64,000 bases of DNA, from sequence record MK482688.1, one strand, 5' to 3'. The notes beneath the pieces are model-generated. The model saw only the letters and a list, made by a program, of their open reading frames with translations, ran no database searches and was not told the origin of the DNA. Position numbers and translations under genes: made by a program. This document shows positions 601 to 62,474 of the stretch, one piece after another (within the stretch, counting starts at the first letter, position 1; each line of letters opens with the position of its first letter). Source of the stretch: Escherichia phage vB_EcoM_LMP25.

Positions 601-1149
601 ATGGGAAAAGATAACTTAAAAGAAGTTGAAGGTAACTATCTAGTCCTTGACTGGAGTGATATTCGGGAAGCACTCTCCGAAGAAAATCTTGACTGGTTCG
701 AACAAATTATCTTTGCAGTACGGCATAACAGAGAAGTTGAAAATGGTAAAGAGCCGCTTGAAGGAATCTTTGTAGAAAGGTCTTATCCGTTCTATGAAGA
801 TACTTTGCAGAAAGTTAAGATGTACTTTAGACAGAAGAACCGTAAAGTGGTCACTATGGTATCTCTTGGTGGACAGAGTATGTCTGTGATGGAAGATATC
901 AACCCTAAGAGACCGAGTAAAGGTGTTTGTATAAAAATCACAGGTCACGAAGAGTATATCTCAGTGGATGACTTTAGAGCATTCTGTAGTGGTTCTTGTG
1001 TCTTTAATGGTTTTCACTATGATATCCGAGTGTACCCAATCAAGGGAGATGATATCATGATGCAGGTATTCGATAACAACAATGGATTTACTCATTTTTA
1101 TCAGACAACCAAGTCATCACTGAAGACAGTTCTGGAAACACTGATTTAA
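601..1149 (+). CDS. hypothetical protein
   Basis: ORF track 556..1149; ATG at 601 chosen because it avoids overlap with upstream gene; no motif recognised. Confidence 0.45.
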   Translation: MGKDNLKEVEGNYLVLDWSDIREALSEENLDWFEQIIFAVRHNREVENGKEPLEGIFVERSYPFYEDTLQKVKMYFRQKNRKVVTMVSLGGQSMSVMEDINPKRPSKGVCIKITGHEEYISVDDFRAFCSGSCVFNGFHYDIRVYPIKGDDIMMQVFDNNNGFTHFYQTTKSSLKTVLETLI

Positions 1150-1161
1150 AATATCTTAAGA

Positions 1162-1190
1162 GCCTCCTTAATTGGGGGCTTTTTAATTTT
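1162..1190 (+). terminator. rho-independent terminator
   Basis: GCCTCC-ttaatt-GGGGGC stem-loop (one G-U pair) followed by TTTTTAATTTTT. Confidence 0.5.
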
Positions 1191-1199
1191 TATAAAATT

Positions 1200-2732
1200 T
1201 TATCGGTTGTCCCAACCTCTGGGTCACCATCATATGTGAACAAAATATCTACCCTTCTTAACAACCTTCTTAAGCTTACTCTCTATATATAGTTATATAG
1301 TACTATATAGTATCTTAGTATCTATCTAGTGGTCTTAATAGCCCTCTGTATAACCCTTCTAACAAGCCCTCTAACAAGCCTTCTTAACAACCTATACAAT
1401 CACCTTAACCACCTCTCTATACCCTCTTAGAAGCTCCTATACACCTCTTAATCTCTAGGTTAGCTATGACACTCTCTATAGGTGTTCACTAGGTATTACT
1501 AAGCCTCTATATAGACTGTTTTAACAAACTTAACAGGAATATCTTCACAGACCTTATCTCACAAGGTCTAACACGGTACTAACAAGGTATCTTATAAGCC
1601 TGTTATTACCTGTATTTTAGAAAGGCTGTATAGGTAATTATTCAGAATCTTAAAATTTTTATAAAATAGGACTATCAAGTCATTTTTTAGGGTCTTTGAA
1701 GGAACTGAAAAATATCTGTAGAAGATGTATATCTGCTTGGTAGCCCTTAACAACTCCCTTACAAGTACTTTGCAAAATTTTAAATATCATTAACAATTCC
1801 TTAACAACTCTCTCAAGTTCTTAACATCTCTTCAGAGGTCTTAACAGATTCTTAACAGAACTAACAAGGTTGTAACAAGTTCTTAACAGTTGATACATAG
1901 GCTTTACAGAATCTTAACAGATGACTAACAAGAGCTAACAAGTTAATTTTTAAGAGTTATTTTGTTAAGATAATTAACAAGTTTCTAACAAGTGTTTAAT
2001 CTTTTTAACAAGCTATTAACATGGTCACTACTCTTTTCTTATCGTTCCCTTTCCCTCTTAGTGATTCTCTAAACATACCTCTTAAAAGCTCTCTATAGCT
2101 CTTTATAAGCTCTTTTAAGCCTCTTCCTAGTAATTACACCCCAACTGTACAGATACCTCTTTATAAGGCTTTACAGGGGCTTTAAAGGCTATGTCAAAGG
2201 TTCTTACAAGGCTTTTACGTTGTCTTAACAGAGATTTAACAAGGGGCTAACAAGTTGCTAACAAGCATAACTATGTAGGGATTGTTAAGAAATTGTTAAG
2301 AAAATGTTAAGGGGGCTAGCATTTACGTAACTTTTAAGCAACTTCAAAGTAACTTTATAGCCCCTATAACATACTTTTAAGACACTAACAAGCCCTTTTT
2401 AGATATTCACAAGATAGCTAACGAGATAATAAAGCTTATAACCTTATAAGATTCTTTTAAGCCTCTATAAAGCCCTGTAAAGAGCTTTTTAAGGTTGGTT
2501 AATGCAATCCCTTAAGTTAGGTTGATAAGGCTGTTATAGAGCTTTATAGAGCATTTAAATGGGCCATCCCCTTTCTGGGGTTATTGGCTTTTATTTAAGT
2601 TGATTTGATAAAAGGTTATAGAGTAGACTATAGAGTTATTGCTTTTTAAGGTATGAGATAGATTCTATCGAATTAGTGGGATAGATTCTAGGAAGGAAAG
2701 GGAAAGGGTTGTATAGAGGCTATTACATAGAC
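1200..2732. repeat. ORF-free, G-depleted (on + strand) region dense in degenerate short words (CTTAACAAG, CTCTATA, CTTTTAAG) in both orientations
   Basis: No ORF of 60 aa or more on either strand over about 1.5 kb between convergent terminators; words counted by eye. Confidence 0.6.
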
Positions 2733-2787
2733 GTAAAAAAGCCCCTATGAGAAGGAGCTTTTCAGGTATCTGGGGCTATTTAGCCCC
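2733..2787 (-). terminator. tandem stem-loops ending the - strand early array
   Basis: On - strand GCTCCT-tctcat-AGGGGC followed by TTTTTT (plus 2735-2758), and GGGGCTAAATAGCCCC at 2772-2787. Confidence 0.45.
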
Positions 2788-2797
2788 GTTGCGTCGA

Positions 2798-3046
2798 TTA
2801 GTTGTAACCTTGTTTGCTGTAGTATAGGGAGACGATTTTTTCTCCCCAGTAGTGGTAGTGATATTCCTCGTTTATGGCTTCTTTTACAGCGTCCTTCCAA
2901 AAGTCATCGGTAGGGTTATAATCTGGTAGCACCTGCTGAATCAGCATTTTGATAAGGTCAAAGGTGTTATCTGTTCCACCGATATCGAATTTTGCATCAA
3001 GTTCGTGGCAGCCATAAGCATTAACAGTTACGCGGATAGTTGACAT
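2798..3046 (-). CDS. hypothetical small early protein
   Basis: 82 aa, ATG verified, preceded by F1 cassette with GGAG. Confidence 0.55.
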   Translation of the reverse strand: MSTIRVTVNAYGCHELDAKFDIGGTDNTFDLIKMLIQQVLPDYNPTDDFWKDAVKEAINEEYHYHYWGEKIVSLYYSKQGYN

Positions 3047-3112
3047 AATTTAGATTCTCCAGTTTAGGACTTTACTTAGTGGGGGGGAGGTCATCCCCCG
3101 TTGATTAGTAAT
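3047..3112 (-). promoter_or_regulatory. F1 intergenic cassette (TAAATT -10-like, GC stem-loop, conserved leader with GGAG)
   Basis: About 66 bp conserved block, one of 7 F1 copies; read on - strand. Confidence 0.5.
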
Positions 3113-3376
3113 TTACTGCATATTGGCGTATGTTGCAAGCCTTTTTTCGTTGTATTTTGTAAGAATCTCACAAGATACAACATCATACTTTGTAACAGCG
3201 TTGCCTTTATCGAGGTCAAAAAAGCCAAACGCTTTACCATCTTTGAATCCGACAACTTCGTAAGATTCTTTGATGATTTCACCATTGAACAAATCACTTT
3301 CGATACGGTGAAATAATGCTACATCTTCTTTGTCGGTTGCAATTTGTAAAAGTGTGGTTAATTCTACGTTTTCCAT
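3113..3376 (-). CDS. hypothetical small early protein
   Basis: 87 aa, ATG verified, F1 cassette upstream. Confidence 0.55.
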   Translation of the reverse strand: MENVELTTLLQIATDKEDVALFHRIESDLFNGEIIKESYEVVGFKDGKAFGFFDLDKGNAVTKYDVVSCEILTKYNEKRLATYANMQ

Positions 3377-3442
3377 CTTGATAACTCCAGTTTAGGATTT
3401 TATTTAGTGGGGAAGGTCATTCCCTCCCCGTTGATTGACAAT
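3377..3442 (-). promoter_or_regulatory. F1 intergenic cassette
   Basis: ctgTAAATTgtcaatcaacGGGGAGGGaatgaCCTTCCCCactaaataaagtcctaaactGGAGattcaaaATG on - strand. Confidence 0.5.
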
Positions 3443-3973
3443 TTACAGACTTTTGATTGTCTCGTCAATATCTTTTTCAATGTCTTTTAAAGTTTTTTCT
3501 AAGTTCTTGATATTAAAGGATAAACCTTCACCAAGAGTCTTAGAGTAACCACTAGGACGTAAATTATACAGCTTAATTTCTTCCACTTTAAAGAGACTAA
3601 CTAACTCACCGTTTACATCATAAGCCATTGAAACAGTATTTGCAGGTGCATTGTAAAACTTGTTTAAGGACTTGATAGAGCGTTCATAAGCCATTTTATA
3701 ACCGTTTAAAAGGCTTTTAACGTGGTTGTGAACGTTTTTACACTCATCTAAGTAAATCTCTAAGAATAACGGTAATAATTCCGCTACAGCTTGCATAAAG
3801 TGAGAGACTACAACGGTTGAAACATTACGACGATGAACGTAATAAGCCCCGTTTTCTGATTTGGTGATTGTTGCGAAATGTACCCCATTACAACGGAATT
3901 CGTATGTATCTTTTACAGGCTTAGACATTACAGCATTTGAACGAATGAAGTTGATAGCTTGAAATTTGTTCAT
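3443..3973 (-). CDS. hypothetical early protein
   Basis: 176 aa, ATG verified. Confidence 0.55.
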   Translation of the reverse strand: MNKFQAINFIRSNAVMSKPVKDTYEFRCNGVHFATITKSENGAYYVHRRNVSTVVVSHFMQAVAELLPLFLEIYLDECKNVHNHVKSLLNGYKMAYERSIKSLNKFYNAPANTVSMAYDVNGELVSLFKVEEIKLYNLRPSGYSKTLGEGLSFNIKNLEKTLKDIEKDIDETIKSL

Positions 3974-5892: not shown

Positions 5893-6096
5893 TTATTTGT
5901 TATTTTTGACAACTTTTAAAACTGCAAGATAGCCTAAGCAATAAGAATCACCGAAGAGAGTCCTACCCATGAAAGAATCCTCTTTGATATCCTTTGCAGT
6001 GACAGTTTTTTCTACGCCGTGGGAAAGGACTATATCACCAACTTTGATATCTTTGATGTGTGTAGTTTCAATGGTTAAACCATTAATAATAGCCAT
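5893..6096 (-). CDS. hypothetical small early protein
   Basis: 67 aa, ATG verified. Confidence 0.5.
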   Translation of the reverse strand: MAIINGLTIETTHIKDIKVGDIVLSHGVEKTVTAKDIKEDSFMGRTLFGDSYCLGYLAVLKVVKNNK

Positions 6097-6197
6097 TTTT
6101 GAATCTCCAGTTTAGGACTTTATTTAGTGGGGAAGGTCATTCCCTCCCCGTTGATGTGTAATTTAATCTATCTAAAAACCAGTGTCAACAAAATTTT
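6097..6197 (-). promoter_or_regulatory. F1 cassette with complete sigma70-like promoter
   Basis: On - strand TTGACA (6188-6183), 17 nt spacer, TAAATT (6165-6160), then F1 stem-loop and leader. Confidence 0.5.
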
Positions 6198-6602
6198 TTA
6201 GAGTTCTGCATAAATTGCATCACAGATATCGCGGAAGTCATGATTAGTCAAATTACGCTGCAACCAAGTGGCGAAAAAGTCAGCGATTGCAAAGTTAGCA
6301 TCATACTCGACAGATAGCCACACTTTAACAGCAAATCGGAACATTTTCAAATCTAACTCTTTATTCATTACCTTAGATTTGCCTAACATGTCGGACATTT
6401 CATATTGCGCACCGTCTAGTGTGATACCTGCTGCAACGTCAGCCAATGAATTTTTTACGCTTTCAACGTCTAAGATAACACTTTGAATCTTCCCAATAAT
6501 GTTTTGCAGTGTTTCATCTGGTGCTGATGACGTGATAACATTAATCCGGTTAACGGTCAAACGTGCTTTTAAAATTGATAATTCACGGTTATTAATAGCC
6601 AT
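6198..6602 (-). CDS. hypothetical early protein
   Basis: ORF track start 6617 is TTG; ATG at 6602 (MAINN) follows GGAG of cassette. Confidence 0.5.
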   Translation of the reverse strand: MAINNRELSILKARLTVNRINVITSSAPDETLQNIIGKIQSVILDVESVKNSLADVAAGITLDGAQYEMSDMLGKSKVMNKELDLKMFRFAVKVWLSVEYDANFAIADFFATWLQRNLTNHDFRDICDAIYAEL

Positions 6603-6688
6603 TTTTAAGTTCTCCAATTTAGGATTTAGTGGTAAAGCTCTTTATCTGGGGCTTACTTTATCGAACTATAAGCCCCTTGTAAAGTACT
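6603..6688 (-). promoter_or_regulatory. F2 intergenic cassette
   Basis: Near-identical to copy at 5471-5557. Confidence 0.5.
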
Positions 6689-6961
6689 TTACATTAAATG
6701 CAGTTTTTTGCCTTTTACTATAATGTAACTCGATGCGCTATTGCTTTGCACATCTTGATAAATTCTGCGCAAACGGCCTTCATAGTGTACTTTCCAGCTA
6801 GTTGGAATCTTTTTCCCGTATCCGGTAGCAGTTTTTTGGAGTCCTGCTACTTGCCAATCTAAGATGTGTTGCTCAGCTTGTAAATCATCAAAGCACATTA
6901 CACCATCAACATAGTGACGTAGAGTGACATTTAAAGTACGACCGTTGTTAGTAGTATACAT
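6689..6961 (-). CDS. hypothetical small early protein
   Basis: 90 aa, ATG verified. Confidence 0.55.
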   Translation of the reverse strand: MYTTNNGRTLNVTLRHYVDGVMCFDDLQAEQHILDWQVAGLQKTATGYGKKIPTSWKVHYEGRLRRIYQDVQSNSASSYIIVKGKKLHLM

Positions 6962-7050
6962 TTTTGAATCTCCTAGTTTAAGGACTTTATTTAGTAGGGA
7001 GGTTATTACCTCCCCGTTGATGTGTAATTTAATCTATCTAAAAATCAGTG
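6962..7050 (-). promoter_or_regulatory. F1 cassette (variant) with sigma70-like promoter
   Basis: TTGACA (7054-7049, overlapping upstream stop), 17 nt spacer, TAAATT (7031-7026). Confidence 0.5.
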
Positions 7051-7383
7051 TCAACAGTTTTGTTTTCGTTTGCTCAATTCTTGAACAATTACAGCGTGAT
7101 AATCTTTTAAGTCACTAATATTTAAAGCATTTATCAGAGAATTATAATCATCGACTAATTGAAAATTATCTTTGAAAATGTCACTGATTTGATAAGTTCT
7201 CGCCCTGAATCTAAAGCTCATTTCTAGCCGTTTTAATTGTTCATCACTTAAACGCTCTAGAAAGCTCATTACAAGGTTATTATTAACCTGTTGTGTGATT
7301 GCCTTACTTGCCAGATTATAGGCTTTATATGCCTTATATAGCGCGAAAATGGCAATGATTGCAGTGATACCAGTCATTAACAT
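7051..7383 (-). CDS. hypothetical membrane protein
   Basis: 110 aa; N-terminal hydrophobic helix ITAIIAIFALY; overlaps upstream gene. Confidence 0.5.
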   Translation of the reverse strand: MLMTGITAIIAIFALYKAYKAYNLASKAITQQVNNNLVMSFLERLSDEQLKRLEMSFRFRARTYQISDIFKDNFQLVDDYNSLINALNISDLKDYHAVIVQELSKRKQNC

Positions 7384-7673
7384 GGTGTTTCCTCTTTACG
7401 TGATACTTTGCCATTTACAGTTATCTCATAGGATTCTAATAAATCGCTTTTAGACTTTACAGGACTTTTAAAAGTATCATCATAAATATTGACTTGCAAT
7501 ACAGGTTTTTTATACTCCCTGCAACTGTTCCATAAGCAAATCACTACACGACGGCCTTTGATTTTTCCGTGTAACCATTCCATAACATCATGACTATTCC
7601 TTGATGTTTCAATGAAATCAATTTTATTAAGTAACTTGCTTAAATTTTCACGGACTTTATTTGATAATTTCAT
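7377..7673 (-). CDS. hypothetical small early protein
   Basis: 98 aa, ATG verified. Confidence 0.5.
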   Translation of the reverse strand: MKLSNKVRENLSKLLNKIDFIETSRNSHDVMEWLHGKIKGRRVVICLWNSCREYKKPVLQVNIYDDTFKSPVKSKSDLLESYEITVNGKVSRKEETPC

Positions 7674-7765
7674 TTTAGAATCTCCTAGTTTAAGGGTTGA
7701 TTTGAATAAAGCTCTTTATCTGGGGCTATCTTATCAGTCTGGTAACCCCGTGTAAAGAAATCTAT
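7674..7765 (-). promoter_or_regulatory. F2 intergenic cassette (divergent variant)
   Basis: Shares ctttatctggggc core; stem GGGGCTAtc..GGTAACCCC. Confidence 0.4.
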
Positions 7766-8278
7766 TTAGTTCTTAAAGATATTCATCACTGAGTCTTTCA
7801 ACGATTCCAAACGTTCTAATACTTCAGATTCTGCGTCTGCGTTGTTCACCTCTTCTTTTAGTCTATCCTCTAAATCATCGCCGTCACGATAGCACCAATC
7901 GAAAGCATAACCAATATAAAAACTCTCTAAAACCGTGCTACCGTTTGCATCTACAACTTTCGCGGCGATGTTATATTCTGAAGCCTCTAAATCTCTTTCT
8001 AGTTCTTTCTGTAAGCTGATGTAAGCCTCTTTTGATGGGTTTTCCCGGCCTTGTTTTGCATAGTCACTTGAAAGCTGTTTAAGGCTGTAATGTAAAGGGA
8101 TTGCATATTTAAATTCATTACGCTGACAGCTAGGATTTTTAATCGTCACACCGCCTTGATGGTCATCTGTAAATTCCCAATTATCAAGATTATGGCTTGC
8201 TTCAAAGCAATTAACTGCTTCGTAAATGATGGAAAATTTTTCTTTTACAACTTCAAAGGTAGCGTCTACAGTTTTCAT
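7766..8278 (-). CDS. hypothetical early protein (acidic)
   Basis: 170 aa, ATG verified. Confidence 0.55.
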   Translation of the reverse strand: MKTVDATFEVVKEKFSIIYEAVNCFEASHNLDNWEFTDDHQGGVTIKNPSCQRNEFKYAIPLHYSLKQLSSDYAKQGRENPSKEAYISLQKELERDLEASEYNIAAKVVDANGSTVLESFYIGYAFDWCYRDGDDLEDRLKEEVNNADAESEVLERLESLKDSVMNIFKN

Positions 8279-8363
8279 TTTTGAATCTCCAGTTTAGGAT
8301 TTAGTGGTAAAGCTCTTTATCTGGGGCTTAAGATATCAGCTTTTAAGCCCCCTGTAAAGTACT
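8279..8363 (-). promoter_or_regulatory. F2 intergenic cassette
   Basis: Conserved block. Confidence 0.5.
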
Positions 8364-8657
8364 TTATTTGTTAATTTTCAGCTTTGCATAACTTCTCATT
8401 GTACGAATGGGGGATGTTAATGCTACGCGTCTAATGTATGCCTTTTTCGTGTATACATTTGTCTTCCCGATAGTGTTTACACATGTAAAAAGGTTTATCG
8501 GTGAATTTTTTAACTTCAACTGTTTATCAACCTTCACGCCCCACCTTACAGCAGATTGTTTTCCGTTGTCAACCACTTTCCCGCATAACTTTTTAGCCAT
8601 AACGCGAGCGTCATCACGAGTCTTTGCAGTAATTACAACGTTTTTGATAATAGCCAT
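8364..8657 (-). CDS. hypothetical small basic early protein
   Basis: ORF track start 8672 is TTG inside the cassette; ATG at 8657 (MAIIKN). Confidence 0.5.
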   Translation of the reverse strand: MAIIKNVVITAKTRDDARVMAKKLCGKVVDNGKQSAVRWGVKVDKQLKLKNSPINLFTCVNTIGKTNVYTKKAYIRRVALTSPIRTMRSYAKLKINK

Positions 8658-8743
8658 TTTTAAGTTCTCCAATTTAGGATTGAGTGGTAAAGCTCTTTAT
8701 CTGGGGCTTACTTTATCGAACTATAAGCCCCTTGTAAAGTACT
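8658..8743 (-). promoter_or_regulatory. F2 intergenic cassette
   Basis: Conserved block. Confidence 0.5.
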
Positions 8744-9127
8744 TTATTTGTTAATTTTGAAGATAGTTACATAACCATCGCTGCCGATGATTTGTGATGC
8801 TCCAGCTTTTTCTACTTGATAGCCCATATTTTCAAGATGGTAAACAGCATCATCATAACCATATGCGCCGCCCTGATAACGTCTCTTATCACATCTTACT
8901 AATACCTTTCCACGTCCTGCCAGTGCATTTAGTACGGCTTTTTCACTTGAAAGTGTACCATCTAACATGGTTGCCGTGTAATGGTTGATTCTATTCCCGT
9001 TTACATCATACTTAAAATTGAATGCGTGAACAACGATAATGTTACCTTTAAAATTCTCATCAAGTGACTTCTCCAGTGCGTTGCGAAAGTTGTCTTTGTT
9101 GATGAATTTAGGTGCACGATATGCCAT
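8744..9127 (-). CDS. hypothetical early protein, first gene of array
   Basis: 127 aa, ATG verified. Confidence 0.55.
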   Translation of the reverse strand: MAYRAPKFINKDNFRNALEKSLDENFKGNIIVVHAFNFKYDVNGNRINHYTATMLDGTLSSEKAVLNALAGRGKVLVRCDKRRYQGGAYGYDDAVYHLENMGYQVEKAGASQIIGSDGYVTIFKINK

Positions 9128-9190
9128 TTTTGAATCTCCAGTTTAGGACTTTATTTAGTGGGGAAGGTCATTCCCTCCCCGTTGATGCAA
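9128..9190 (-). promoter_or_regulatory. F1 intergenic cassette
   Basis: Conserved block upstream of first array gene. Confidence 0.5.
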
Positions 9191-9219
9191 ATACTAGATA
9201 ACCACGTTCAAAGAGTCAA
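9191..9219 (-). promoter_or_regulatory. sigma70-like promoter for early array
   Basis: On - strand TTGACT (9219-9214), 17 nt spacer, TAGTAT (9196-9191). Confidence 0.4.
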
Positions 9220-9341
9220 GAAAAAATTTTAAAAATATTTTTGGCAAAACTGTAATGAAACGGGCGCACACAACTACCACAAAACAGAACACAAATCAAG
9301 AATTATTTTTCAATCCGCTACAAATTTTTCTCTTGACTTTT

Positions 9342-9372
9342 GGGGAGAGGGGGAGTAAGAGGGGGAGAGGGG
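9342..9372 (+). repeat. polypurine mirror repeat / G-quadruplex motif
   Basis: GGGGagaGGGGGagtaagaGGGGGagaGGGG; four G-runs of 4-5 with loops of 3, 7 and 3 nt. Confidence 0.6.
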
Positions 9373-50149: not shown

Positions 50150-50190
50150 AAAAAAGGCTCCCGTCAAAAGGAGCCTTAAAATTTTATTTT
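50150..50190. terminator. bidirectional rho-independent terminator
   Basis: GGCTCC-cgtcaaaa-GGAGCC with A-run before and T-run after, between convergent genes. Confidence 0.6.
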
Positions 50191-50555
50191 TCAGTATTCT
50201 TTGTGTTCTTCTCAGTAATAGCTTGGAGGGCTGATACTGATTGAGCCAGATTATTTACACTGTCAGAGAATTTATCAAGAGTTTTGGTAAGTTTTGCGTT
50301 TTCGCCCTTAACATTCTCTAACTGAACTTTCTGGTTCTCCATCCCTAGCTGAATCAATCTCATGTCAGACTGTAAATCACGAATAGCTGAATAGTTACTT
50401 TTGGAATAATTATCTAGCTGCTGTAACTTTGTTGTGACAGACACTTCTTGTTTACCACTTGAAACTTGCATGGTGGTATACATCCCAATAACACTAAAAA
50501 TACCAACTACAATTGCACCAATATTATTTTTAAAAGCTTCCTCTAGCCACTTCAT
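50184..50555 (-). CDS. membrane protein with coiled-coil domain (possible lysis-associated)
   Basis: N-terminal TM GAIVVGIFSVIGMY then coiled coil. Confidence 0.45.
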   Translation of the reverse strand: MKWLEEAFKNNIGAIVVGIFSVIGMYTTMQVSSGKQEVSVTTKLQQLDNYSKSNYSAIRDLQSDMRLIQLGMENQKVQLENVKGENAKLTKTLDKFSDSVNNLAQSVSALQAITEKNTKNTEK

Positions 50556-50749
50556 TTATTCTCCCCCTTAAAAGCTTTTTCTAAGTTATCTACGAACTCA
50601 TCATCAATAGGTGTGTCTGTTTTACTCGCAAGGTATCTTGCAAGCCTAAAGAACACTTTCTCAATCATGTATTCACTTAGAAGGGATAAAATGAGTTTCC
50701 AGAAGAAGCTACCTAGATTTTTTAGAAGAATTGCTAGGATTGTAGGCAT
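50552..50749 (-). CDS. small membrane protein (possible holin-like)
   Basis: 65 aa, one hydrophobic helix, charged C-terminus. Confidence 0.35.
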   Translation of the reverse strand: MPTILAILLKNLGSFFWKLILSLLSEYMIEKVFFRLARYLASKTDTPIDDEFVDNLEKAFKGENK

Positions 50750-50828: not shown

Positions 50829-53213
50829 TTAAGCAGTTCTCACCCAAGCCATTAACTTGTAGAACTGGTTAGTAACACTAAATGCTGAACCAGAACCTGT
50901 ACTACCAGTGTTACCACTGACTGTGTGGCTGTGAGCACCAATACCTACAGAGTGGGAATGGTCACCAGCACCGCTTGTAGTACCAGACCATGTGTGTGTA
51001 TGGTTACCAGTTGTGTTAGTGTTAGGGAACTTGTTATCAGTTCTGTCAAGCCAGTCAAGAGTTCTTGTCTTGTTGTTACCAATAGTGGTATAACCGTACT
51101 GAGCATCACCACCATTAACCAATAGTAGACCTAAGTGGTGAGCGTGGTTACCAGCAGCACTTGTTGTACCACTTACAGAGTGAGTATGACCACCAGTACT
51201 ATTAGTGCCCTTCGTACCATAATCAAAAGATGAAGTGGTGGCAGAGAAACTGTGAGTGTGCGATGGTAAGTTACCAACAGCTAAAGTTACAGAGTCTGAA
51301 CCACCAGTTGTAGCAACATCTGAACCGTTTGCTGCTGCGATTCTGATAGTTCTACCAACACCATTGTTCAGGTACGTCCAAGTTAACCCAGGCAACGCTG
51401 TGTTAGGGTTAACATTACTGTTAAACCATGTTACAATACCAACTGGGTAGATTTTATTAAGGTCTGTAGAGTCACTAATTGCTTCTGCAATTTTCTGGTC
51501 AGTTTCAGCTTTAGTGTATGCACCAATCTCTGAAGGGTTTGGTCTCTGAGCTTCAGTGTAAACCTTAGACCATTCAGCCTCAAAACCCTGCCTATCTCTA
51601 GCTGTTCTATACCATAAACCACTATTCCTGTAATCAAACCTTAATTGTGCAGTTGGTGTTGATGCTAACGTATTAGCGAATAGGTGTAAGACTAAACGGC
51701 TTGAACCACCACCCTTGATAGTCTCTACATAAATTCCTGAAGGTTGGTTCCAAGCCACACCACCATCAGACTCCTCCACTAAAGCTCTGGATGCTGGCCA
51801 TAAGTACTTTGCATCGGTTGCAGATTTAACGTAGTATCTATCATCTAAGTTAGACCAATCAGATGGTTGTACCTGACCAGTGATTCTAACAGTTTTATTC
51901 AGTAAGAAATCACTCCCCATGTAAATGGTGGTAGCAGTCCTGTCATTGTGAATAATGAGTCTGGTCGGGTCTGCTGTTTCTCCATTCCCAATATACCACC
52001 TTCTCACATCGTCAGCATTATGGGCAGAGAGATACACCTCTTTATCCTGAATAGTATTCCTTAGTTGCAATAATGGGCCATTCTGTTTAATAACCTGTGC
52101 AGACCTGAAAGTGTTTACATCACTTAGCTTAGCAAGATTACTCAAAGTTCCTGCTGGAATATATCTAGAGTCGATGTTAGTCCAATCAGAAGGTTGAACT
52201 TGACCAGTGATTTGGACTGTTCTGCTCATGGCAATGGTGTTACCTAGTGAGATTTGTGTATTTGCTAAGTAGTTATAGATGTTTACAGTGTTTTCATCGG
52301 TATCATTACCAATATACCACTTACAAGTTCCATCTGATTTTTTTGCTTGGATATACAAAGCAGCAGTTGTATCTACATTTTGCAGAGTGATAGCATTAGC
52401 ATTCTTCTTAACAACAAAGTTAGTGAAAATATTAGAGCCACTAAAAGTATTATCACCAGCCAACTGTGCAAATTTCTGATTAGCCACTGTCTGAGTAAAA
52501 TATCTAGCATCTAAGTTAGAGAAGTCAGAAGGTTGAACTTGACCCATAACTCTTAGTGTCTTGTTAAACGATGCTGTTGCATCAAGTGTCAACATTGAAC
52601 CGGTGGCATGATTGTACAAATAAACATTAGTATTATTTGCATTTCCTTGCCCAACATACCAAGTTTGCTGGTTATTAGCATCCCTACCTTGAATATATGA
52701 AGCACCTGCATTGGTTGCTTTCTTAAGGGTTAACTGCTCACCATCAGTTACAATTGCTTGCCTAATGCTGAAGTTATTTGTAACAGCAAGCCTTGCATAT
52801 CTTGCATCATTCTCTTCATTAGTTCTCATCCCAAGTTCATTAGGACTTGGTTTATTCAGAGTATGGTAAACAGTTGCTGACCTTGAAGCATCTGCAATAG
52901 TTAGTTTAAGACCATTTGCGTTAATTTTAAAAGTCTTTAAAACATCCCCAATAGTAATCTCAGAAGAGCCTGTCGGGTTAAATACTACCTTACCACCATA
53001 AAGTAACTTAATAATCCCTAAGTCACCAGTCATAGTGCTACCAGCAATCTGAACAAATCTTTCAAGTTTAAAAGATGCTAAGAAGTCTTGATAGGTCATT
53101 CGACGGTCTTCATCACCCAGCATTTCAGGTCTCTTTTTAACTCTGACATGAAGAAGGTCATCTGAACGGATTGTGTCGATTGAGTTTAATTCACTCAATT
53201 TGTAATCTGCCAT
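50829..53213 (-). CDS. tail fibre protein (long)
   Basis: 794 aa; three internal repeats with GQVQPSD(W/F)(S/T)N(L/I)D.RY; C-terminal His-rich HxH repeats (GHTHS, NHAHH, NHTHT, DHSHS, AHSHT). Confidence 0.7.
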
Positions 53214-53230
53214 TATATATTATCCTCTCA

Positions 53231-53248
53231 AAAGGGGCTATAAAGCCC
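53231..53248 (-). terminator. intergenic stem-loop between tail fibre genes
   Basis: AGGGGCTTTATAGCCCCT on - strand, short T-run. Confidence 0.4.
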
Positions 53249-53259
53249 CTGTAAAGAAA

Positions 53260-54447
53260 TTAAGCTGTTCTCTGCCATACATACAGTACGAAGGATGGCT
53301 GCTCAATGTTGAAAGCTTGTCCACCACCAACACTATTAGTGTTCCCGCTATGCGTATGTTCAGAAGAAGAAACTGTTACAGTACCATTGTGTGTATGTGA
53401 ACCAATACCAACTGTGTGGCTGTGAGCACCAATACCAACCGTATGGTTGTGGTTACCAGTTGTGTTAGTGGTAACACTGAAAGAGTGGCTGTGAGCACCA
53501 GCGACTTCACAGACAGCATCTGCTGAGTACCATGATTGGTCATTCCTTGAAGACCAAACCATTGCAGGTCTTTCCGATAAACCACCACCTGCTTCATAGG
53601 TCAATCTGTGGTTGTGAGCACCATCCGCATTTGTTGACCCACTACCCACATGGTTGTGGTTACCAGTCGTGTTAGTGGTCTTTGTCCCATAGTCAAAAGA
53701 GTTGGTAGTCTTAGTTCCATAATCAAAAGCTGAAATTGACACCGTTGCATTATGGGTGTGACCACCACCACTAAGAGACACAGAGTGTGAGTGTTGTGGC
53801 ATGTTATTAACTGACAAAGTGACAGTTGAAGCACCAAATACAGAGCCTGCTGGTCTTGTATCAGAGTCATAACCAACCAACGCTCTACCTTTTGAAACTA
53901 ACTCCCAAGTTCCTCCACAAATTAAATACGTAGAAGGGTTTGCAGAGTTCATGGAAAGATGGATAGTACCTACTGGATAAGAAGCCTGAACAGCCTTGTA
54001 CAAGTTATTTACTGCTCTTGCTGTAGCATACTTATCTGCATCTTCATTATAAAGGTTAGATGTTGTCCAGTTCTGAACATTACTCAATCCTACCTGTGCC
54101 TTAGTTGTATTATGTGGGTTGCTCTTGTCCTGAATATGCTGTTGAACAAGATTATTAACCTCTTCTGAAGACATAATCTGTAGATTTGCTCTTGCCTGAG
54201 CTACATTAGTAACGTCTGATAAGTTATTTGCAGCAACTAACTGAAGAGCATTGATAACGTTATCTAAACCAATTTGTGTTTTAGTAACACCATGAGGGTT
54301 ATTTCTTAGGCTTGAGTGTGGAGCAAGTAATTGCTCAAGAGTACATCTCTTATCCTCAATACCCTGCTTAAGATGGAAGATATCACTAAGGTCAATTGGT
54401 AAGGCTGCTTGAGGCAAGGCACTAATTTGAATTTCACCTACCGCCAT
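53260..54447 (-). CDS. tail fibre protein (short) with His-rich tip
   Basis: 395 aa; HSHSVS, GHTHNAT, NHNHVG, AHNHRL, AHSHSF, NHNHTV, AHSHTV, SHTHNG repeats; C-terminus similar to 50829..53213. Confidence 0.65.
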   Translation of the reverse strand: MAVGEIQISALPQAALPIDLSDIFHLKQGIEDKRCTLEQLLAPHSSLRNNPHGVTKTQIGLDNVINALQLVAANNLSDVTNVAQARANLQIMSSEEVNNLVQQHIQDKSNPHNTTKAQVGLSNVQNWTTSNLYNEDADKYATARAVNNLYKAVQASYPVGTIHLSMNSANPSTYLICGGTWELVSKGRALVGYDSDTRPAGSVFGASTVTLSVNNMPQHSHSVSLSGGGHTHNATVSISAFDYGTKTTNSFDYGTKTTNTTGNHNHVGSGSTNADGAHNHRLTYEAGGGLSERPAMVWSSRNDQSWYSADAVCEVAGAHSHSFSVTTNTTGNHNHTVGIGAHSHTVGIGSHTHNGTVTVSSSEHTHSGNTNSVGGGQAFNIEQPSFVLYVWQRTA

Positions 54448-54449
54448 TA

Positions 54450-62474
<8,025 letters not shown>

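What the first reader, a model, noticed from the sequence alone, without database searches (positions are those of the whole stretch)
50829..54447. Two adjacent tail fibre genes sharing His-rich HxH-repeat C-terminal tips
Both proteins end with dense HxH triplets (for example [16 protein letters not shown]) and a similar terminal motif (AWVRTA versus VWQRTA), while the long fibre also has three roughly 100-aa internal repeats. HxH repeats are characteristic of metal-coordinating receptor-binding tips of phage fibres. The shared tip module suggests duplication or recombination that could alter host range.
Basis: partly seen in the sequence, partly recalled or inferred. Interest (0 to 1): 0.4.

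Follow-up and report, generated by a model that had tools for sequence, protein, structure and literature searches.

The report
Felixounavirus short and long tail fibres
These are the short and long tail fibre genes of a Felix O1-like coliphage, each ending in a T4 gp37-type histidine-rich receptor-binding tip; the arrangement is real but was already published for close relatives.

Summary
Window 50829-53213(-) encodes a 794-aa long tail fibre (LTF) and 53260-54447(-) a 395-aa short tail fibre (STF). The phage is a Felixounavirus, 99.9% identical to Escherichia phage vB_EcoM_LMP34. The LTF has 6 HxH motifs and the STF 9, against about 1 in shuffles. The two tips align at 34% identity (E 8e-22). 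Both match the crystal structure of the T4 gp37 tip (PDB 2XGF, E 1e-23 and 1e-26), and their HxH motifs align with gp37's iron-binding histidines. The three ~110-aa LTF repeats are real.

The interpretation needs three corrections:
- The chain doubles back, so the shared C-terminal xWxRTA motif should sit in the collar. The receptor-contacting head is the His-free insert (LTF 693-737, STF 281-318), and the two heads are unrelated.
- There is no recent duplication or gene conversion between the two genes. The longest exact DNA match is 21 nt.
- LTF residues 660-761 are instead 86.5% (nt) identical to gp37 of a T4-like phage, so the cassette moves between phage families.

This architecture was published for Felix O1 (2010), Sf14 and Bas63 (2025). 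It is ordinary and already known.

The parts
50829..53213 (-). Long tail fibre (LTF) gene, 794 aa; homologue of Bas63 gp27 and Felix O1 Gp77
   Evidence: ORF. PHROG 4277 matches full length, 1292 bits. Annotated 'tail fiber' in the 99.9% identical LMP34 record. Synteny with bas63_0027.
52827..53213 (-). LTF N-terminal region (aa 1-129), conserved across Ounavirinae; contains the baseplate-binding domain described for Bas63
   Evidence: 70-100% identity in all 12 relatives in the sliding-window map. The function is taken from the Bas63 cryo-EM paper PMC12609058 and was not tested here.
51828..52826 (-). Three tandem ~110-aa shaft repeats (aa 130-240, 241-353, 354-462), each ending in GQVQPSDxxNxDxRY
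   Evidence: Pairwise identity 30-37% (MAFFT), pairwise BLASTP E 1e-19 to 1e-23. Pfam PF20744 gp37_trimer matches three times, E 3.9e-51. The corresponding DNA repeat family D3 has spacings of 327 and 339 nt. The blocks are exchanged individually between relatives.
51465..51764 (-). LTF internal domain (aa 484-583) of the Mu gpS / Pfam gp37_C type
   Evidence: Pfam PF12604, E 2.1e-15. PDB 8ju3, the Mu tail fibre S, E 7.6e-22 over LTF 482-576.
51264..51458 (-). LTF collar, ascending part (aa 586-650), gp10/gp37-collar type
   Evidence: Pfam PF21939 Gp10_C scores 25.2 bits, just under the 27-bit cut-off. Aligns with the STF and T4 gp37 collars. 98-100% conserved in most Felixounavirus relatives.
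50919..51263 (-). LTF needle plus head (aa 651-765) with 6 HxH motifs (652, 676, 690, 738, 752, 761)
   Evidence: HxH count. Aligns to 2XGF residues 105-219, E 7.6e-23. The HxH motifs align with T4 gp37 883, 915, 929, 966, 980 and 989. Four of the six motifs are invariant in 56 homologues.
51003..51137 (-). LTF head domain, the putative receptor-contacting insert (aa 693-737), with no HxH motif
   Evidence: Longest HxH-free gap in the tip. Corresponds to the T4 gp37 tip residues between H929/H931 and H966. Hypervariable among relatives.
50932..51235 (-). Cassette shared with T4-like phages (LTF aa ~660-761)
   Evidence: 86.5% nt identity over 304 nt and about 90% aa identity to gp37 of Tequatrovirus Shigella phage SHBML-50-1. 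The same head occurs in 34 phage records, about 5 of them 166-169 kb T4-like genomes.
50832..50918 (-). LTF C-terminal segment (aa 766-794, ...[11 protein letters not shown]), inferred to return to the collar
   Evidence: Identical or nearly identical in all 13 LTFs compared. Aligns with the C-terminal T4 gp37 segment that Islam et al. assign to collar domain D10, residues 1010-1026.
53233..53250 (-). GC-rich hairpin (AGGGGCU-UUAU-AGCCCCU) followed by UUUU in the 46-nt STF-LTF spacer, upstream of the LTF Shine-Dalgarno sequence
   Evidence: Sequence. Fold of the 61-nt stretch: -17.7 kcal/mol, z = -2.84. Annotated as a Rho-independent terminator at the same place in wV8 and KhF2. The consensus scan did not call it.
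53260..54447 (-). Short tail fibre (STF) gene, 395 aa; homologue of Bas63 gp26 and Felix O1 Gp76
   Evidence: ORF. PHROG 2097, E 9.5e-137. Annotated 'tail fiber' in LMP34. Synteny with bas63_0026.
54013..54447 (-). STF N-terminal region (aa 1-145), including two NPHxxTKxQ(I/V)GLxNV motifs (aa 50 and 110)
   Evidence: Motifs found. Conserved in all relatives. [quoted passage not shown]
53797..54012 (-). STF collar, ascending part (aa 146-217)
   Evidence: Pfam PF21939 Gp10_C, 68.8 bits against a 27-bit cut-off. PDB T4 gp10 2fkk, E 2.3e-5. The monomer model gives a weak Foldseek match to 2fkk (E 0.047, prob 0.99, 89 columns, rmsd 4.7).
53347..53796 (-). STF needle plus head (aa 218-367) with 9 HxH motifs and a tandem FDYGTKTTN duplication (aa 241-249 and 251-259)
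   Evidence: Aligns to 2XGF residues 18-228, E 1.6e-26. All seven T4 HxH motifs have STF counterparts, and STF has two extra at 230 and 364.
53494..53607 (-). STF head domain, the putative receptor-contacting insert (aa 281-318)
   Evidence: Longest HxH-free gap. Hypervariable among relatives, 0-30% identity in sliding windows. Unrelated to the LTF head (score 28).
53263..53346 (-). STF C-terminal segment (aa 368-395, ...FVLYVWQRTA), inferred to return to the collar
   Evidence: Conserved in all 13 STFs compared. Aligned with the LTF and T4 C-termini.
54450..54752 (-). 100-aa protein immediately upstream, at the position of bas63_0025 (the gene position the Bas63 paper calls the LTF platform, gp25)
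   Evidence: PHROG 4141, E 2.8e-62. Synteny with bas63_0025. The role is taken from PMC12609058 and was not tested here.

Best explanation
The locus encodes the two lateral fibres of a Felixounavirus (Ounavirinae myophage): a 395-aa short fibre and a 794-aa long fibre. It lies directly downstream of the baseplate wedge and fibre-platform genes.

Each fibre has a lineage-conserved N-terminus that docks to the baseplate, a shaft, and a C-terminal T4 gp37-type receptor-binding tip. In the LTF the shaft is three gp37_trimer repeats plus a Mu-S-like domain.

By homology to the gp37 crystal structure, three chains run outward from a gp10-like collar, form a small head, and run back. This gives a six-stranded needle. 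Each HxH motif from the three chains supplies six histidines that coordinate one metal ion (Fe2+ in T4) on the fibre axis. The prediction is 6 metal sites in the LTF and 9 in the STF.

The HxH ladder is therefore a structural rivet, not the receptor site. Specificity lies in the His-free head insert (LTF 693-737, STF 281-318). The two heads differ, so the fibres most likely recognise different surface structures. For this genus the expected targets are LPS-core structures.

The conserved motifs on either side of the head are FDYGTK on one side and HxH(S/T)VGIGAHxHTV on the other. They mark the boundaries at which head cassettes are exchanged, both among Felixounaviruses and with T4-like phages.

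Shown here: homology, motif alignment, the mosaic map and cross-family cassette sharing. Inferred: trimer geometry, metal occupancy, receptor identity, and recombination at the flanking motifs.
For: - Identity and synteny: 99.9% identical to LMP34 and LMP33, with both genes annotated as tail fibres. Same gene order as Bas63 gp23-gp30.
- Tip homology: 2XGF hits at E 7.6e-23 (LTF) and 1.6e-26 (STF). In the joint alignment six HxH columns are shared by all three proteins, and T4's seventh aligns with STF 351.
- Constraint on the histidines: 8 of the 32 invariant columns in 56 LTF-tip homologues are HxH histidines, and 8 of the 28 invariant or nearly invariant columns in 55 STF-tip homologues are histidines.
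- Collar: Pfam Gp10_C matches and T4 gp10 PDB hits.
- Mosaic map: in 12 relatives the N-terminus, collar and last ~30 aa are conserved, while the head and adjacent needle are hypervariable. Some relatives differ only in the head, with flanks 100% identical (H84-H86).
- Cross-family cassette: LTF 660-761 is 86.5% nt identical to gp37 of Tequatrovirus SHBML-50-1.
- Exchange between the two fibres of one phage: Salmonella phage CECAV_041 has nearly the same head on both fibres.
- Literature:
  - T4 gp37 has seven axial irons, the iron-binding histidines are essential, and collar D10 is residues 811-881 plus 1010-1026 (PMC6957217).
  - In Bas63 both STF and LTF have a collar-needle-head tip with HxH motifs and the chain doubles back (PMC12609058).
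Against: - No trimer model or metal analysis was possible. The AlphaFold2 monomer models have pLDDT 68 and pTM 0.32-0.33, and Foldseek did not recover 2XGF.
- The LTF Gp10_C Pfam score (25.2 bits) is just below the curated cut-off of 27.
- No receptor or adsorption data exist for this phage.
- In Bas63 virions both fibres lie folded against the sheath and the STF head touches the sheath, so a purely receptor-binding role for the STF is unproven.
- T4 gp37 needs gp38 and gp57A to fold. No homologue of either was found in the near-identical LMP34 genome, so the assembly route differs from T4.
Confidence: 0.9

Rival explanations
1. The two tips are the product of a recent duplication or gene conversion within this genome, so the two fibres carry essentially the same receptor-binding module.
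For: The tips are homologous from collar to C-terminus. They share short identical DNA patches, for example 21 nt at 51001-51021 and 53450-53470. In one relative, Salmonella phage CECAV_041, the two heads really are nearly identical.
Against: Amino-acid identity is only 34%, and the best DNA patch is 49 nt at 84%. The head inserts are unrelated (score 28, against 173 in CECAV_041). The LTF tip is closer to T4 gp37 (41%) than to the STF (34%), and its needle-head cassette is ~90% identical to a Tequatrovirus gp37. The STF/LTF pair with diverged tips is present in all 12 Ounavirinae compared, so the duplication, if there was one, is ancient.
Confidence: 0.04
2. Only one of the two fibres is a true receptor-binding protein. 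The other, most likely the STF, uses its gp37-like tip mainly as a structural or latch element that holds fibres against the sheath or triggers the baseplate.
For: In the Bas63 cryo-EM the STF head sits between sheath domains D2 and D3 in the retracted state (PMC12609058). The BASEL paper says no role has been explored for short fibres in Felix O1 relatives. Felix O1 proteomics found Gp76 (the STF) at only 9% coverage.
Against: The STF head is as hypervariable among relatives as the LTF head. That pattern is expected for a host-interacting surface and not for one that contacts the highly conserved sheath. The STF tip is homologous throughout to a proven receptor-binding tip.
Confidence: 0.12
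3. The HxH density is compositional (a low-complexity Gly/Ser/Thr/His-rich repeat) with no metal-binding role.
For: The region is rich in T, G, S and N. BLAST's low-complexity filter masks part of it.
Against: No shuffle with the same composition reached the observed HxH count. The motifs align position for position with the iron-coordinating histidines of 2XGF. They are among the few invariant columns over 55-56 homologues with 27-34% mean column identity. Mutating the equivalent T4 histidines abolishes plaque formation (PMC6957217).
Confidence: 0.02

Closest known systems
Escherichia phage JohannRWettstein (Bas63) STF gp26 and LTF gp27 (cryo-EM, Sci Adv 2025, PMC12609058)
   Same: Same genus and same gene order. 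Both fibres have a conserved N-terminal baseplate-binding domain and a C-terminal collar-needle-head tip with HxH motifs. The LTF has 6 HxH motifs with an extra His next to the head-proximal motif, and beta-helix repeats in the shaft.
   Different: The window's STF has 9 HxH motifs against 7 in Bas63. Bas63 replaces the two head-proximal ascending motifs with a third FDYG-like repeat. The head inserts of both fibres are unrelated to those of Bas63, with 0-30% identity in sliding windows. The 9-HxH STF type is the commoner one in the sample, 10 of 13 including the window.
Bacteriophage T4 gp37 receptor-binding tip (PDB 2XGF; Bartual et al. 2010)
   Same: Collar, needle with axial HxH metal sites, head insert and returning C-terminal strand. 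36-41% BLASTP identity, with six (LTF) or seven (STF) of the seven HxH motifs aligned.
   Different: In T4 the tip ends a 1026-aa distal half-fibre that is joined through gp36, gp35 and gp34. Here it ends single-protein fibres of 395 and 794 aa. T4 has 7 metal sites, against 6 and 9 predicted here. T4 needs gp38 and gp57A, and no homologue of either is detectable in this phage. T4's C-terminus ends in ...NYIVRLA, against ...AWVRTA and ...VWQRTA here.
gp37 of Tequatrovirus Shigella phage SHBML-50-1 (and the T4-like phages sutha, BYEP01 and AV122)
   Same: Carries nearly the same needle-head cassette as the window's LTF: 86.5% nt identity over 304 nt and about 90% aa identity. The head of the Felixounavirus P54 LTF is identical to it.
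   Different: The collar and the last ~40 residues are T4-type, not Felixounavirus-type. A gp38 chaperone gene follows it. The genome is 166 kb and belongs to the Straboviridae.
Shigella phage Sf14 tail fibres (Mooglevirus, Ounavirinae; Commun Biol 2025, PMC11821841)
   Same: Two single-protein fibres retracted on the tail. The longer one is described as a Mu-like fibre that acquired a T4 gp37-like distal tip. No Mu-type chaperone homologues are present.
   Different: A different genus. The close relative Sf13 has an LTF with 4 HxH motifs and a larger, unrelated head.
Phage Mu tail fibre gpS (PDB 8ju3) / Pfam gp37_C (PF12604)
   Same: LTF 482-576 matches at E 7.6e-22 and E 2.1e-15.
   Different: Here this domain is internal, followed by a further 210-aa gp37-type tip.

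Membership tests
T4 gp37-type receptor-binding tip (collar-needle-head, PDB 2XGF) | Significant sequence homology to the solved gp37 tip | tested here: met
   phmmer against PDB: LTF E 7.6e-23 (650-774 vs 105-219); STF E 1.6e-26 (146-367 vs 18-228).
T4 gp37-type receptor-binding tip (collar-needle-head, PDB 2XGF) | HxH motifs at the positions of the metal-coordinating histidines of gp37 | tested here: met
   Three-way alignment: T4 883/915/929/966/980/989 = LTF 652/676/690/738/752/761 = STF 219/264/278/319/333/342. T4 998 = STF 351. STF has extras at 230 and 364. The histidines are invariant or nearly invariant in 55-56 homologues.
T4 gp37-type receptor-binding tip (collar-needle-head, PDB 2XGF) | gp10/gp12-like collar domain preceding the needle (Pfam PF21939) | tested here: met
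   STF scores 68.8 bits against the 27-bit cut-off. LTF scores 25.2 bits, just below it, but the LTF collar aligns with the STF and T4 collars, and its database homologues carry PF21939.
T4 gp37-type receptor-binding tip (collar-needle-head, PDB 2XGF) | Intertwined homotrimer with chain reversal at the head and metal ions on the three-fold axis | not testable with these tools
   Only monomer AlphaFold2 was available. The models have pLDDT 68 and pTM 0.32-0.33, and Foldseek hits were uninformative. The feature is inferred from homology and from the AF3/cryo-EM analysis of Bas63 homologues.
T4 gp37-type receptor-binding tip (collar-needle-head, PDB 2XGF) | T4-type assembly pathway (gp38 and gp57A chaperones). 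This belongs to the T4 system, not to the fold itself. | tested here: not met
   tblastn of T4 gp38, gp57A and gp57B against the window and against the 99.99% identical LMP34 record (84.9 kb, deposited as partial) gave nothing better than E 0.2. No 'Felixounavirus'-named records appear among the ten commonest name groups of the 348 phage records with gp38 homologues. This was BLAST-level sensitivity only.
Felixounavirus STF/LTF pair (Bas63 gp26/gp27, Felix O1 Gp76/Gp77) | Synteny: baseplate wedge 2, wedge 1, 100-aa platform, STF, LTF, two small ORFs, then convergent thymidylate synthase and DHFR genes | tested here: met
   and the same order in all loci fetched that extend that far.
Felixounavirus STF/LTF pair (Bas63 gp26/gp27, Felix O1 Gp76/Gp77) | Full-length homology with conserved N-terminal baseplate-binding regions | tested here: met
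   Sliding-window identity of 70-100% over the N-termini of both proteins in 12 relatives. PHROG 4277 and 2097 match full length.
Pfam gp37_trimer (PF20744) shaft repeats | Repeated ~95-aa units matching the profile | tested here: met
   Three stretches, E 3.9e-51 and 171.5 bits against a 21.7-bit cut-off. The three units are 30-37% identical to one another.

The most novel reading that the evidence does not exclude
The LTF carries a needle-head cassette about 90% identical to that of a gp38-dependent T4-like gp37. Yet this phage has no BLAST-detectable gp38, gp57A or Mu-type fibre chaperone. The most novel reading is that Felixounavirus fibres fold the iron-riveted gp37-type tip either without a dedicated chaperone or with an unrecognised one. 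Candidates for an unrecognised chaperone are the two conserved small ORFs directly downstream, 50552-50749 and 50184-50555. If so, the collar and C-terminus, rather than the needle and head, decide chaperone dependence. The His-box-flanked head cassette would then be a portable host-range module between two phage families that have different assembly machinery.
Probability: 0.3. Interest if true: 0.4.

Novelty: already known. Interest (0 to 1): 0.15.

Why it matters
For phage biology the locus is the host-range determinant of a Felix O1-like coliphage. Knowing where the head cassette begins and ends is practical for engineering host range: LTF about 670-751 and STF about 257-334, between FDYGTK and the GIGAHxHTV His boxes.

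The finding adds nothing conceptually new. C-terminal similarity of both fibres to T4 gp37 was noted for Felix O1 in 2010. The collar-needle-head tips with HxH motifs on both fibres were described structurally for Bas63 in 2025.

Two small increments come from this analysis:
- the same LTF needle-head cassette circulates between Felixounavirus and Tequatrovirus;
- one Salmonella Felixounavirus carries nearly the same head on both of its fibres.

Tried and rejected
- AlphaFold2 monomer models of both tips, built from alignments of 55 and 56 homologues, gave pLDDT 68.5 and 68.1 and pTM 0.33 and 0.32. Foldseek against the PDB did not recover 2XGF. The LTF tip gave only meaningless hits to elongated beta proteins (E > 1). 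The STF tip gave only a weak collar match to T4 gp10 (2fkk, E 0.047). No trimer prediction tool was available.
- BLASTP of each protein against itself returned only the trivial hit. The repeats had to be cut out and compared pairwise.
- A search for gp38, gp57A and gp57B homologues in the window and in LMP34 found none.
- A search for an invertible-segment arrangement as in Mu or P1 found only short, chance-level inverted repeats.
- The two small downstream ORFs were tested as possible fibre chaperones. PHROG 402 and 4038 have unknown function, and there is no significant Pfam match. One ORF has a hydrophobic N-terminus and a coiled coil, and some records annotate it as 'holin'. Nothing supports a chaperone role.
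- The idea that the 'Tequatrovirus' megablast hits were all genuine T4-like phages was rejected in part. P54 is an 88-kb Felixounavirus whose record carries a Tequatrovirus taxonomy line. Genuine T4-like carriers of the LTF head do exist.
- The Bartual 2010 paper (PMC2996694) is not held in the library. T4 structural facts are cited from PMC6957217 and PMC12609058 instead.


Full report
**What is at the coordinates.** On the minus strand the window carries two adjacent ORFs: 53260-54447 (395 aa) and 50829-53213 (794 aa). A 46-nt spacer separates them. The 3.6-kb stretch is 99.9% identical to Escherichia phages vB_EcoM_LMP34 and LMP33, and 85-95% identical in mosaic pieces to about 260 other records, almost all of them Felixounavirus. 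Nearly the whole window matches LMP34 at 99.99-100%. In LMP34 both genes are annotated 'tail fiber'. They lie downstream of the baseplate genes and upstream of two small ORFs and the convergent thymidylate synthase and DHFR genes. Bas63 (JohannRWettstein) has the same order, with the two genes as bas63_0026 and bas63_0027. PHROGs places the long protein in phrog_4277 (full length, 1292 bits) and the short one in phrog_2097 (E 9.5e-137). Both families are tail fibre families.

**Check of the observation.**
- The LTF has 6 HxH motifs, at residues 652, 676, 690 (HAHH), 738, 752 and 761.
- The STF has 9, at residues 219, 230, 264, 278, 319, 333, 342, 351 and 364.
- All lie in the C-terminal 209 and 242 residues. 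In 10,000 composition-preserving shuffles of those segments the means were 0.74 and 1.41 and the maxima 5 and 7.
- The quoted [16 protein letters not shown] is STF 331-346. The proteins end in AWVRTA and VWQRTA.
- The tips align over LTF 589-794 and STF 157-395 at 34% identity, E 8e-22.
- The three LTF repeats are residues 130-240, 241-353 and 354-462. Each ends in GQVQPSDxxNxDxRY. They are 30-37% identical pairwise, with E 1e-19 to 1e-23. They correspond to three matches to Pfam gp37_trimer, E 3.9e-51.

**What the tips are.** Both proteins hit the crystal structure of the T4 long-tail-fibre tip, gp37 residues 785-1026 (PDB 2XGF). The E-values are 7.6e-23 for the LTF and 1.6e-26 for the STF. 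In a three-way alignment, six HxH columns are shared by T4 gp37 (883, 915, 929, 966, 980, 989), the LTF and the STF. T4's seventh motif (998) aligns with STF 351. The STF has two more, at 230 on the outgoing strand and 364 on the returning strand.

In T4 there are seven iron atoms along the needle, coordinated by these histidines. H929 and H931 are essential. The collar (D10) is built from residues 811-881 plus the C-terminal 1010-1026 (PMC6957217). The region before the needle matches Pfam Gp10_C: 68.8 bits for the STF, and 25.2 bits for the LTF, which is just under the 27-bit cut-off. It also matches T4 gp10 structures.

In alignments of 55 and 56 diverse homologues, with mean column identity of 34% and 27%, the HxH histidines are among the few invariant or nearly invariant columns. 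In the LTF set these are H652/654, H690/692, H752/754 and H761/763. This is the signature of a structural constraint, not of composition.

First, the gp37 chain reverses at the head and returns to the collar (and the D10 definition). The extreme C-terminus and the shared xWxRTA motif should therefore sit at the base of the tip, not at its distal end. The distal, receptor-contacting part is the His-free insert between the third and fourth shared HxH motifs. In the LTF this is residues 693-737 ([45 protein letters not shown]). In the STF it is residues 281-318 (RLTYEAGGGLSERPAMVWSSRNDQSWYSADAVCEVAGA). These two heads show no similarity, with a local score of 28. The two fibres therefore probably recognise different structures.

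Second, the two tips are not recent copies of each other. Amino-acid identity is 34%. At the DNA level the best patches are 49 nt at 84% and a 21-nt exact match in the TNTTGNH-coding stretch. The LTF tip is at least as close to T4 gp37 (41% by BLASTP, 48% in the MAFFT alignment) as to the neighbouring STF (34% and 44%). All 12 Ounavirinae compared have the same diverged STF/LTF pair, so any duplication is old.

**Where exchange really happens.** I extracted both proteins from 12 relatives: Bas63, P54, KhF2, DE17, RPN213, ULIM3, pinkbiff, SUSP2, wV8, EcoM2, CECAV_041 and Sf13. I then computed sliding-window identity to the window's proteins.
- In both fibres the N-terminus, the collar and the last ~30 residues are conserved.
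- The head and the adjacent needle drop to 0-30% identity.
- The variable cassette runs from just after FDYGTK to just before the HxH(S/T)VGIGAHxHTV box. That is about LTF 670-751 and STF 257-334.
- Some phages, such as RPN213 and BPS17S6, are 100% identical to the window on both flanks and differ only in between.
- The LTF shaft repeats are also exchanged block by block. KhF2, for example, is nearly identical in repeat 2 only.

Two further results are worth recording. First, LTF residues ~660-761 (window 50932-51235) are 86.5% identical over 304 nt, and about 90% identical in protein, to gp37 of the T4-like Shigella phage SHBML-50-1. The collar and C-terminus remain lineage-specific on each side. 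The same head is present in 34 phage records, about 5 of them 166-169 kb T4-like genomes. Second, in Salmonella phage vB_CECAV_041 the STF and LTF carry nearly the same head (33 of 37 residues, score 173 against 21-51 in all the others). The DNA is only about 80% identical there, so this is not a fresh event either. It is not right for the pair of genes in this window.

**Mechanism.** Shown here: homology to a solved metal-riveted tip, conservation of the coordinating histidines, and the modular variation of the head. Inferred:
- Each fibre is a homotrimer anchored by its conserved N-terminus. According to the Bas63 cryo-EM, the STF binds wedge protein 2 and the LTF binds the 100-aa platform protein.
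- The needle is stiffened by 6 (LTF) or 9 (STF) axial metal ions.
- The head binds the receptor.

For this genus the receptor is expected to be LPS. Felix O1 targets LPS, and Bas63 depends entirely on an intact LPS core. T4 gp37 tips bind LPS and OmpC. The LTF head is shared with T4-like phages, so a porin receptor cannot be excluded for it.

**Assembly.** T4 gp37 needs gp38 and gp57A. I found no homologue of gp38, gp57A or gp57B in the window or in the near-identical LMP34 genome. The best E-value was 0.2, at BLAST sensitivity only, and the LMP34 record is 84.9 kb and deposited as partial. The Sf14 authors likewise report that Sf14 has no Mu-type chaperone homologues. The two small ORFs just downstream (65 and 123 aa) have hydrophobic N-termini, one also has a coiled coil, and neither has an informative family match. 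How these tips fold remains open. This is the only mildly novel angle.

**Structure prediction.** Only monomer AlphaFold2 was available. Both tip models were of low to moderate confidence (pLDDT 68, pTM 0.32-0.33). Foldseek against the PDB recovered only a weak collar match to T4 gp10 for the STF (2fkk, E 0.047, prob 0.99) and nothing meaningful for the LTF. This neither supports nor refutes the His ladder. A trimer prediction is required.

**Comparison with what is known.**
- The Felix O1 genome paper (2010) already noted that both Gp76 and Gp77 resemble T4 gp37 at their C-termini.
- The Sf14 paper (2025) describes two single-protein fibres, the longer with a T4 gp37-like distal tip.
[quoted passage not shown] It counts 7 (STF) and 6 (LTF) di-histidine motifs, and finds that the tips and the LTF beta-helix repeats are the most variable structural regions of the genus.

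The window's STF differs from Bas63's only in having 9 motifs. That is the commoner STF type in my sample, 10 of 13 including the window.

**Verdict.** It is wrong on where the 'tip' lies and on a duplication or recombination link between these two genes. The feature is an already known, well-annotated component of Felixounavirus virions, so interest is low.

Noticed in passing
L012 (Salmonella phage vB_CECAV_041): STF 347-1513, LTF 1564-3906: The head inserts of the STF and LTF of this phage are nearly identical (HTHTVGGRYGGDSIGGKQRVQVSGT[A/N]QVSS[V/S]AG[D/A]H). The local score is 173, against 21-51 in the 12 other phages. The DNA is 79.6% identical over 269 nt. One virion would then carry nearly the same receptor-binding head on both fibre types.
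   Followed up: partly
window 50932-51235 (-); L015 (Shigella phage SHBML-50-1) gp37 gene 741-3818: The LTF needle-head cassette is 86.5% nt identical to gp37 of a 166-kb Tequatrovirus. The same head occurs in the T4-like phages sutha, BYEP01 and AV122. The head of the Felixounavirus P54 LTF is identical in protein to the SHBML-50-1 head.
   Followed up: partly
L003 (PV390658.1, Escherichia phage vB_EcoM_P54): The record's taxonomy line says Straboviridae; Tequatrovirus. The genome is 88 kb with Felixounavirus gene order and 91% identity to the window's fibre locus, so it appears to be misclassified.
   Followed up: no
window 53233-53250 (-): There is a GC-rich hairpin followed by UUUU in the 46-nt spacer between STF and LTF (-17.7 kcal/mol for the 61-nt stretch, z -2.84). 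It is annotated as a Rho-independent terminator at the same place in wV8 and KhF2. It could set the STF:LTF expression ratio or stabilise the STF message.
   Followed up: partly
window 50552-50749 (-) and 50184-50555 (-): Two small conserved ORFs (65 and 123 aa) lie directly downstream of the LTF. Both have hydrophobic N-termini and the longer one also has a coiled coil. PHROG 402 and 4038 have unknown function. The 123-aa one is annotated 'holin' in some records, and it has a weak Rz-like spanin hit (E 0.009). A strong terminator-like bidirectional hairpin follows at 50154-50177.
   Followed up: partly
whole window and L017/L018 (LMP34): No BLAST-detectable homologue of the T4 fibre chaperones gp38, gp57A or gp57B is present, although the LTF carries a needle-head cassette ~90% identical to that of a phage that encodes gp38.
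   Followed up: partly
window 5979-9362: This ~3.4-kb stretch of the window has no counterpart in the LMP34 record. It falls exactly between the record's two ends. LMP34 is deposited as a partial genome, so the window fills the gap.
   Followed up: no
window 53671-53727 (-) (STF aa 241-259); L015 gp37: There is a tandem duplication of the FDYGTKTTN motif in the STF outgoing strand (aa 241-249 and 251-259). SHBML-50-1 gp37 has a similar duplication ([21 protein letters not shown]) where T4 has one copy. Needle length therefore seems to change by duplication of this unit.
   Followed up: no
(protein database hits P0059-P0231): The collar-needle-head module is widespread in prophage tail-fibre or 'baseplate' proteins of Enterobacterales such as Erwinia, Providencia, Mixta, Xenorhabdus, Photorhabdus, Arsenophonus and Serratia symbiotica. 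These are 40-58% identical to the LTF tip across nearly its whole length, and many also carry Pfam PF03406.
   Followed up: no
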